Assembly (NCBI GenBank): GCA_951406725.2
Contig: OX597834.1
Span: forward strand, 26,722,001 to 26,786,000
Direction: 5' to 3'
DNA: 64,000 nt
Origin: Octopus vulgaris
Taxonomy: Eukaryota
A program made the position numbers and the translations under genes. The notes beneath the pieces were generated by a model, which saw nothing but the letters and a program-made list of their open reading frames with translations, did not search any database and was not told the origin of the DNA. This document shows, in pieces, positions 36,040-36,155 of this stretch (position 1 is the first letter of the stretch; every line of letters begins with the position of its first letter).

Positions 36040-36155
36040 TATAGAAGGAGCTTCTACAGGACTAGAACTGTTTCATTCAAAAGAAATCATCAGGAAGCTT
36101 CCTGATGATTTCTTTTGAATGAAACAGTTCTAGTCCTGTAGAAGCTCCTTCTATA
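36040..36155. ncRNA. Perfect 116 bp palindrome encoding a hammerhead on each strand (36050-36098 minus, 36097-36145 plus)
   Basis: 58 bp arms are exact reverse complements centred on AAG|CTT; same family as 22133. Confidence 0.85.

What the first reader, a model, noticed from the sequence alone, without database searches (positions are those of the whole stretch)
36040..36155. Perfect loop-less palindrome that is a sense plus antisense hammerhead pair
Seen: exact 58+58 bp palindrome whose centre (GAAGCTTC) overlaps stem I of both ribozymes, so a transcript from either strand contains an HHR preceded by its full antisense. Inference: the fold-back point coincides with the ribozyme boundary, suggesting RNA structure or the short palindrome guides strand switching during integration; the hairpin would also sequester the ribozyme and offer a Dicer/ADAR substrate.
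Basis: partly seen in the sequence, partly recalled or inferred. Interest (0 to 1): 0.72.

Follow-up and report, generated by a model that had tools for sequence, protein, structure and literature searches.

The report
Mirror-image stub of Penelope retroelement
This perfect 116-base palindrome is one of hundreds of identical stubs left by a Penelope-type jumping gene; the mirror layout is known, but its two halves meet at a fixed point that likely marks the start of the element's RNA, a clue to how these elements copy themselves.

Summary
The exact 58+58 bp palindrome and a type I hammerhead-like motif on each strand are there. It is a short insertion of a Penelope-like element with Hydra-clade features: inverted arm, direct arm, one-sided ~70-nt tail, in (TA)n; full-length copies carry a 713-aa RT/GIY-YIG-type ORF. 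The same centre occurs at 359 genomic sites. In 100 tail-anchored copies, 64 of 158 placed arm ends fall on the first three bases of ribozyme stem I, 1 on the three bases before, and 2 at the cleavage site. A TATA-like box lies 29-30 bases upstream. Best reading (inferred): the junction marks the RNA's 5' end; two run-off cDNAs, primed from both sides of the cut, are joined through the self-complementary AGCT. The layout is published (PMC3846280, PMC8557442, PMC4209133), and this scan's earlier notes reached the same reading on other DNA. No RNA data were obtained.

The parts
36014..36039 (.). (TA)n target microsatellite, left of the insertion; no target-site duplication can be told
   Evidence: TA flanks in all 15 loci with this centre
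36040..36099 (-). Inverted (tail-less) arm: element positions about +60 back to +1 (A of stem I 5' strand = +1)
   Evidence: outer end matches the loose ends at L151:2689/2690 listed for three runs
36049..36099 (-). Type I hammerhead-like motif, minus-strand copy
36096..36099 (.). AGCT: 4-nt self-complementary junction shared by both arms; first four bases of stem I and inferred 5' end of the element RNA
   Evidence: TATA-like box 29-30 nt upstream in longer copies
36096..36146 (+). Type I hammerhead-like motif, plus-strand copy; predicted cut after 36140; stem II closes with U.U instead of G-C
36096..36155 (+). Direct arm (mirrored part of the pseudo-LTR)
36156..36233 (+). One-sided tail (about +61 to +138); in full-length copies it runs on into the 5' UTR, ATG at +183
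   Evidence: loose ends at L151:2617 in all four runs
36232..36299 (.). (TA)n target microsatellite, right of the insertion
22045..22392 (-). Second copy of the same family, opposite orientation; both arms run about 70 nt past +1, include the TATA-like box and meet at an 11-nt loop

Best explanation
The palindrome is a short, promoter-less insertion of a Penelope-like retrotransposon in a TA repeat, and its centre likely marks the 5' end of the element's RNA, where two separately primed cDNA copies would have run off the template and been joined. Shown: family membership, layout (inverted arm + direct arm + one-sided tail), two fixed outer ends (about +60..68 and +138..140), and a one-sided pile-up of inner ends at +1, the first base of hammerhead stem I. 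Inferred: (1) transcription from the TATA box in the pseudo-LTR starts at +1; (2) the element's endonuclease nicks both strands of (TA)n and its RT primes one minus-strand cDNA from each nick, at the two internal sites that flank the tail; (3) when priming happens at the 5' pseudo-LTR end of the RNA both cDNAs run off at +1, ending in AGCT-3'; (4) the two ends anneal by those four self-complementary bases, and fill-in gives the loop-less palindrome; imperfect joins use 1-3-nt microhomologies or short inserts. The sense-antisense ribozyme pair is thus a by-product, likely without function.
For: Parent element: HHR + tail + 5' UTR + 713-aa ORF + second pseudo-LTR in L152; nearest Atlas clusters include GIY-YIG/RVT_1 families. 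Counts: 359 exact centres, 739 opposed pairs with gap <=30 nt, 2081 exact 26-nt tails. Breakpoints in the first 100 of 2081 tail matches: 48 ends at +1, 9 at +2, 7 at +3, 1 at -1..-6; 46 of 100 copies have an arm ending at +1..+3; 13 of 100 are perfect AGCT joins. Arms with no mirrored partner also end at +1/+2 next to TA or other DNA (L139, L091; about 19 of 184 rows listed, counted by eye). TATA-like 7-mer at -29 (21) or -30 (1) in 22 of 22 distinct upstream sequences while the spacer varies. Both arms pass +1 or neither does in 81 of 84 two-armed copies (Fisher p 1e-13). In 30 of 66 copies with both arms at or inside +1 the tail arm stops short of the other arm, which one cDNA folding back cannot produce without a later deletion. 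Arms share subfamily alleles in 38 of 41 copies (17.8 expected), so both come from one source. In vitro, a Penelope-like protein nicks and extends both strands and starts RT at two internal sites flanking the tail, on uncleaved RNA (PMC11167929, main text).
Against: No RNA 5' end was observed. A cap-derived extra G is equivocal: G precedes +1 at 313 sites against 84 for C (about 30 of the 84 are native), but about 45 of the 100 listed G rows can take the G from the partner arm, and next to TA repeats C is as common (about 15 of 84 listed) as G (4 of 100 listed). In the second family the TATA-like word at about -28 is not conserved. TATA spacing is partly shared by descent. Allele concordance and near-symmetric ends also fit fold-back or later deletion. 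Breakpoints were hand-curated (eight automatic calls at -5 or -1 reassigned as over-extension; L019 and L100 ambiguous; L087/L088 look like duplicates), all come from contig C1 and need an exact tail. The D. virilis Penelope promoter is TATA-less (PMC2377424, passages).
Confidence: 0.6

Rival explanations
1. One cDNA, primed at the tail, reaches the RNA 5' end, folds back on itself and is extended on its own sequence until the AT-rich stretch near +65, where it joins the TA target (self-priming; close to the first reader's strand switch and to the proposal in PMC3846280).
For: Common asymmetric junctions fit small snap-back loops of 3-6 nt; TA + a few mirrored bases + arm ending at +1 look like aborted snap-backs; arms share alleles.
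Against: 30 of 66 copies have the tail arm shorter at the junction than the other arm; in L155, L156, L158, L161, L169 the tail motif was found on the inverted arm only; the commonest junction would need a loop of 0-2 nt.
Confidence: 0.17
2. The RNA 5' end at +1 is made after transcription, by a 5'->3' exonuclease trimming up to the folded (or protein-bound) ribozyme, or RT pauses there because of the ribozyme; the junction then forms as above.
For: The boundary coincides with the base of predicted stem I in two families with different stem lengths; cap-G evidence is weak; TATA not conserved in family 2.
Against: Conserved TATA at the canonical distance in family 1; a pure RT pause is disfavoured because partners of upstream-extending arms never stop at +1..+3 (0 of 17); the monomer fold is marginal (P 0.04).
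Confidence: 0.13
3. Longer inverted insertions lose their centre later by hairpin/cruciform deletion between the two AGCT words, leaving a perfect palindrome.
For: The second copy in the window has AGCT on both sides of a longer palindromic centre; internal deletions occur in several copies.
Against: The pile-up stays without the perfect joins (38 against 1) and is one-sided (54 at +1..+6 against 1 at -6..-1); several joins at +1 carry short inserts; partner-less arms end there too.
Confidence: 0.07
4. The palindrome is a functional antisense switch or small-RNA/ADAR source, or the turn is set by ribozyme cleavage.
For: A read-through transcript would form a -98.1 kcal/mol hairpin; Penelope copies yield small RNAs in a rotifer (PMC3846280, passages).
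Against: Hundreds of dispersed copies with heterogeneous joins; no promoter in this copy; only 2 of 158 arm ends lie at +45..+47, the cleavage site; no host gene recognised nearby among ORFs >=150 aa (exons could be missed).
Confidence: 0.03

Closest known systems
Endonuclease-positive Penelope-like insertions with inverted 5'-truncated pLTR and one-sided tail (PMC8557442 passages; PMC3846280 passages)
   Same: Head-to-head inverted and direct pseudo-LTR ends, optional one-sided tail, palindrome at the inverted junction, hammerhead in the pLTR, partial tandems in full-length copies.
   Different: Tail about 70-75 nt instead of 30-40; extreme truncation to a 194-bp stub; a measured one-sided pile-up of junctions at the base of stem I, which these passages do not report; they explain palindromes by self-priming on an antisense template.
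Hydra clade of PLEs (PMC8557442 section 11)
   Same: C-terminal GIY-YIG-type region, DKT, CxCx5C linker, no CCHH, CxxC and CxH motifs, (TA)n target, hammerhead.
   Different: RWR in place of RWK (RWK in family 2); unit about 4.8-5.6 kb because of a microsatellite-rich 3' region, not <3 kb; no tree was built.
Poseidon element of Anolis, in vitro (PMC11167929, main text)
   Same: Two fixed RT start sites flanking the tail, AT-rich target, no sign that cleaved RNA is the template.
   Different: Different clade; there the ORF starts inside the ribozyme, here ATG is at +183; that work does not address inverted junctions.
PLE hammerheads, incl. opposed pairs 100-700 bp apart in Schistosoma (PMC4209133, parts 1-2 of 4)
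   Same: Type I motif in pLTRs, palindromic word in loop III, opposed pairs.
   Different: Here the pair overlaps by 4 nt; stem II short and closed by U.U rather than G10.1-C11.1.
LINE-1 twin priming and cap-derived 5' G (PMC4859970, passages)
   Same: Two primers from one target; small indels at the inversion point.
   Different: In L1 the inverted part is a different stretch of the RNA; here both arms copy the same stretch from two fixed starts.

Membership tests
EN+ Penelope-like element | Single ORF with RT and C-terminal GIY-YIG endonuclease in full-length copies | tested here: met
   713-aa ORF with RDDG and VYTC..YIG motifs; Atlas neighbours at 0.96-0.97 include clusters with GIY-YIG (31-50% of members) and RVT_1 (18-77%). 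Pfam itself gave no RT or GIY-YIG hit.
EN+ Penelope-like element | Partial-tandem pseudo-LTRs containing a hammerhead | tested here: met
   HHR motif both before and after the ORF in 9 of 20 long loci fetched (L152, L153, L161, L162, L164-L168; in L169 the downstream core motif was not matched)
EN+ Penelope-like element | Inverted 5'-truncated copy and one-sided tail | tested here: met
   84 of 100 tail-anchored copies have an inverted arm; tail is longer (about 70-75 nt) than the published 30-40
EN+ Penelope-like element | Target-site duplication | tested here: inconclusive
   Flanks are (TA)n
Hydra clade | DKT; CxCx5C linker; no CCHH; CxxC and CxH | tested here: met
   DKT 116, CNCPDKTTC 567, CDLC 667, CMH 695; no cysteine pair between VYTC and YIG
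Hydra clade | RWK motif | tested here: inconclusive
   RWR in this family, RWK in family 2
Hydra clade | (TA)n insertion | tested here: met
Hydra clade | Generally under 3 kb | tested here: not met
   HHR-to-HHR distance 4.8-5.7 kb in long copies; the paper says 'generally'
Hydra clade | Phylogenetic placement with known Hydra RTs | not tested
   No reference sequences on hand; supplements of PMC8557442 not opened
Type I hammerhead ribozyme | Core CUGANGA, GAAA, NUH; three stems | tested here: met
   N7 and loop II vary between subfamilies while the core stays
Type I hammerhead ribozyme | G10.1-C11.1 pair closing stem II | tested here: not met
   U.U at that place; A.A in family 2
Type I hammerhead ribozyme | Self-cleavage | not testable with these tools
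   Predicted fold -7.3 against MFE -7.6 kcal/mol, probability 0.04
Non-LTR retrozyme | Head-to-tail tandem monomers, non-coding | tested here: not met
   Head-to-head stub of a coding element; definition from bioRxiv 10.64898/2026.07.22.740005 part 1 of 5
MITE / foldback DNA transposon | Symmetric terminal inverted repeats, fixed structure | tested here: not met
   One-sided tail, variable centre, RT-type parent; definition recalled
miRNA precursor | Rfam match at gathering score | tested here: not met
   All miRNA matches far below gathering

The most novel reading that the evidence does not exclude
Hydra-type Penelope RNAs begin exactly at the base of their hammerhead's stem I with a self-complementary 4-mer (AGCT here, CTAG in a second family), and integration is sealed by annealing the 3' ends of two run-off cDNAs primed from both strands of the cut; the stubs are a genomic record of twin target-primed reverse transcription and replace the published antisense self-priming explanation of Penelope inversions.
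Probability: 0.3. Interest if true: 0.6.

Novelty: new member of a known kind. Interest (0 to 1): 0.38.

Why it matters
How Penelope-like elements make their inverted ends is stated as open in the papers read (PMC8557442, PMC3846280, PMC11167929). These stubs give sharp, cheap predictions: the RNA 5' end at the first base of stem I, two cDNAs per insertion, joining by a 4-nt palindrome, and no need for ribozyme cleavage. The individual palindrome is most likely inert debris; the value lies in the family statistics.

Tried and rejected
DNA similarity search of the own genome with the arm found nothing because common words are skipped; patterns were used instead. Rfam: no hammerhead match, only sub-threshold miRNA hairpin matches. 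Pfam: no RT or GIY-YIG hit for this family's ORF pieces or the full ORF; the hits in L049 belong to an unrelated nested Penelope-type ORF. Ribozyme cleavage as the turning point: 2 of 158 ends. Cap-derived G: equivocal. Sequencing runs: no RNA holder listed on record; no RNA reads were laid, so expression, 5' ends and editing remain open. Family 2 test: by eye about 36 of the 50 listed sites have an arm reaching the CTAG word at the base of predicted stem I, but the 30-nt gap limit hides symmetric centres more than about 3 nt further upstream, so a one-sided cliff is not shown there. First automatic breakpoint runs were biased by subfamily differences and were curated by hand; one search failed on a script error. 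Literature searches found no paper reporting inversion junctions clustered at the ribozyme base or RNA start; the library lacks most subscription papers. Look-ups of earlier findings by sequence and by place near the window were empty.

Full report
Observation. The palindrome is exact over 36040-36155 (58+58 bp, no loop) and is the only such palindrome outside TA runs in the window; chance expectation is about 2e-29. Each strand carries a type I hammerhead-like motif (36096-36146 and its mirror 36049-36099) whose 6-bp stem I begins with the AGCT at the centre. Rfam does not call it, stem II closes with U.U, and the monomer fold is marginal (-7.3 against -7.6 kcal/mol, probability 0.04; z 0.04), so the ribozyme call rests on the core motif and the family context. 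Coordinates below count the A of that AGCT as +1.

Family. Exact patterns in the window's own genome give 359 sites with the same 22-nt centre, 1567 exact 27-nt ribozyme words, 739 opposed pairs with a gap of at most 30 nt (15 of the 50 listed are perfect, 1 of 50 keeps native upstream sequence) and 2081 exact 26-nt tail words. The fetched copies show one layout: (TA)n, an inverted arm starting near +60..68, a direct arm, a tail ending near +138, (TA)n. A second copy lies in the window at about 22045-22392 with longer arms. Long copies hold an ORF; L152 has pseudo-LTR, tail, 5' UTR, a 713-aa ORF and a second pseudo-LTR (ATG at +183 in L151). Motifs RWR, DKT, CxCx5C, no CCHH, CxxC, CxH and the TA target match the description of the Hydra clade (PMC8557442 section 11); Pfam is silent, Atlas neighbours carry GIY-YIG and RVT_1 in part; no tree was built. 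Contigs of four public runs show loose ends into TA at the tail end (all four) and at the internal end (three in the printed rows), and one run shows the mirrored continuation at the junction. Earlier AI notes call the host an octopus; I did not test that.

Breakpoint test. I took the first 100 of the 2081 tail matches (all on contig C1; plus loci held), called arm ends automatically and curated them by hand. Of 200 possible arms, 158 ends were placed, 26 ran beyond the reference window and 16 copies had no inverted arm found. Ends: 48 at +1, 9 at +2, 7 at +3, decaying downstream; 1 at -1..-6; 2 at the cleavage site +45..47. Without the 13 perfect AGCT joins: 38 at +1..+3 against 1 at -3..-1.

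What makes the cliff. All 22 distinct upstream sequences carry a TATA-like 7-mer at -29 (21) or -30 (1) while the spacer varies (78 contexts with duplicates). In 84 two-armed copies both arms pass +1 (15) or neither does (66), with 3 mixed; partners of upstream-extending tail arms never stop at +1..+3 (0 of 17, against 29 of 67). This fits two template contexts, the 5' end of the RNA and the downstream pseudo-LTR of a long RNA, and argues against a sequence-intrinsic pause; it does not by itself exclude deletion or fold-back. Arms without a partner also end at +1/+2 (L139, L091; TA-adjacent rows). L139/L053 shows two successive minus-strand pieces that both end at +2. An extra G, the cap signature known from LINE-1 (PMC4859970 passages), is equivocal: 313 G against 84 C sites, but about 45 of 100 listed G rows can borrow the G from the partner arm and TA-adjacent ends show C as often as G (counted by eye).

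One cDNA or two. Among 66 copies with both arms at or inside +1, the tail arm stops further downstream in 30, the other arm in 20, 16 equal. A single tail-primed cDNA folding back cannot give the first class without later deletion, and in five long loci the tail motif was found on the inverted arm only. Arms share subfamily alleles in 38 of 41 copies (17.8 expected) and 46 of 48 at a second site, so both derive from one source element. Together with in vitro data that a Penelope-like protein nicks and extends both strands and starts at two internal sites flanking the tail, using uncleaved RNA (PMC11167929, parts 1-2 of 4), the best model is twin priming with run-off at the RNA 5' end and annealing of the two AGCT-3' ends. 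Steps after the layout and the breakpoint counts are inferred.

Second family. A family 43% identical in protein has 640 opposed pairs within 30 nt; by eye about 36 of the 50 listed reach a CTAG word at the base of its longer predicted stem I. The gap limit prevents a fair test of a cliff, and its TATA-like word is not conserved, which keeps trimming to the ribozyme base alive as a rival.

Function of the hairpin. A read-through transcript would fold into a -98.1 kcal/mol hairpin and so bury both ribozymes, and could be an ADAR or Dicer substrate; but this copy has lost everything upstream of +1, no host gene was recognised among long ORFs, and no RNA evidence was obtained (one search listed no holder on record as RNA).

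Known and new. Inverted pLTR plus tail (PMC8557442 passages), palindromes at inverted junctions explained by self-priming on an antisense template (PMC3846280 passages), opposed hammerheads (PMC4209133 parts 1-2 of 4) and pLTR promoters (PMC2377424 passages) are published; supplements were not opened and may list this family. Eight searches found no report of junctions clustered at the ribozyme base. This scan's earlier notes list 66 findings in at least 18 genomes with these words, several with the same RNA-start and two-start reading; I had stated my reading before seeing them and count them as leads only. Verdict: real, a new member of a known kind, with a testable mechanistic clue; interest 0.38.

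Noticed in passing
window 35281-35556: Second long near-perfect palindrome (138-nt arms, 93%) right after a (TA)n run, followed by non-mirrored sequence and a hammerhead-like CTGACGA...GAAA word near 35772-35840; probably another Penelope-type stub.
   Followed up: no
window 37127-37232 (-): U6 snRNA match at 91.5 bits with a divergent 5' stem; gene or pseudogene not resolved.
   Followed up: no
window 34297-34345 (-): Another type I hammerhead-like motif of a different family, inside a repeat that recurs at 37424-37516.
   Followed up: no
window 24442-24715: AT-rich palindrome with 125-nt arms and a 16-nt loop next to (TA)n.
   Followed up: no
window 18002-18102: Hairpin with 35-43-nt arms between (AAT)n repeats.
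   Followed up: no
window 36727-37093: Tandem duplication of 183 nt, 97% identical, of a common short repeat.
   Followed up: no
L183-L195 (G000): Second Hydra-like family (about 710-aa ORF, RWK, DKT, CxCx5C) with 640 short opposed hammerhead pairs turning at a CTAG word.
   Followed up: partly
L049:3002-5324 (-): A different Penelope-type ORF with Pfam RVT_1 and GIY-YIG hits lies between the two arms of a copy of this family.
   Followed up: no
L053:600-900 / L139: Copy with two successive minus-strand pieces, both ending at +2, the second starting inside the ORF N-terminus: looks like a template jump.
   Followed up: partly
window 59446-60598 (+) and 2726-3274 (+): ORF pieces resembling LINE reverse transcriptase C-terminal regions (likeness recalled, not searched).
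   Followed up: no
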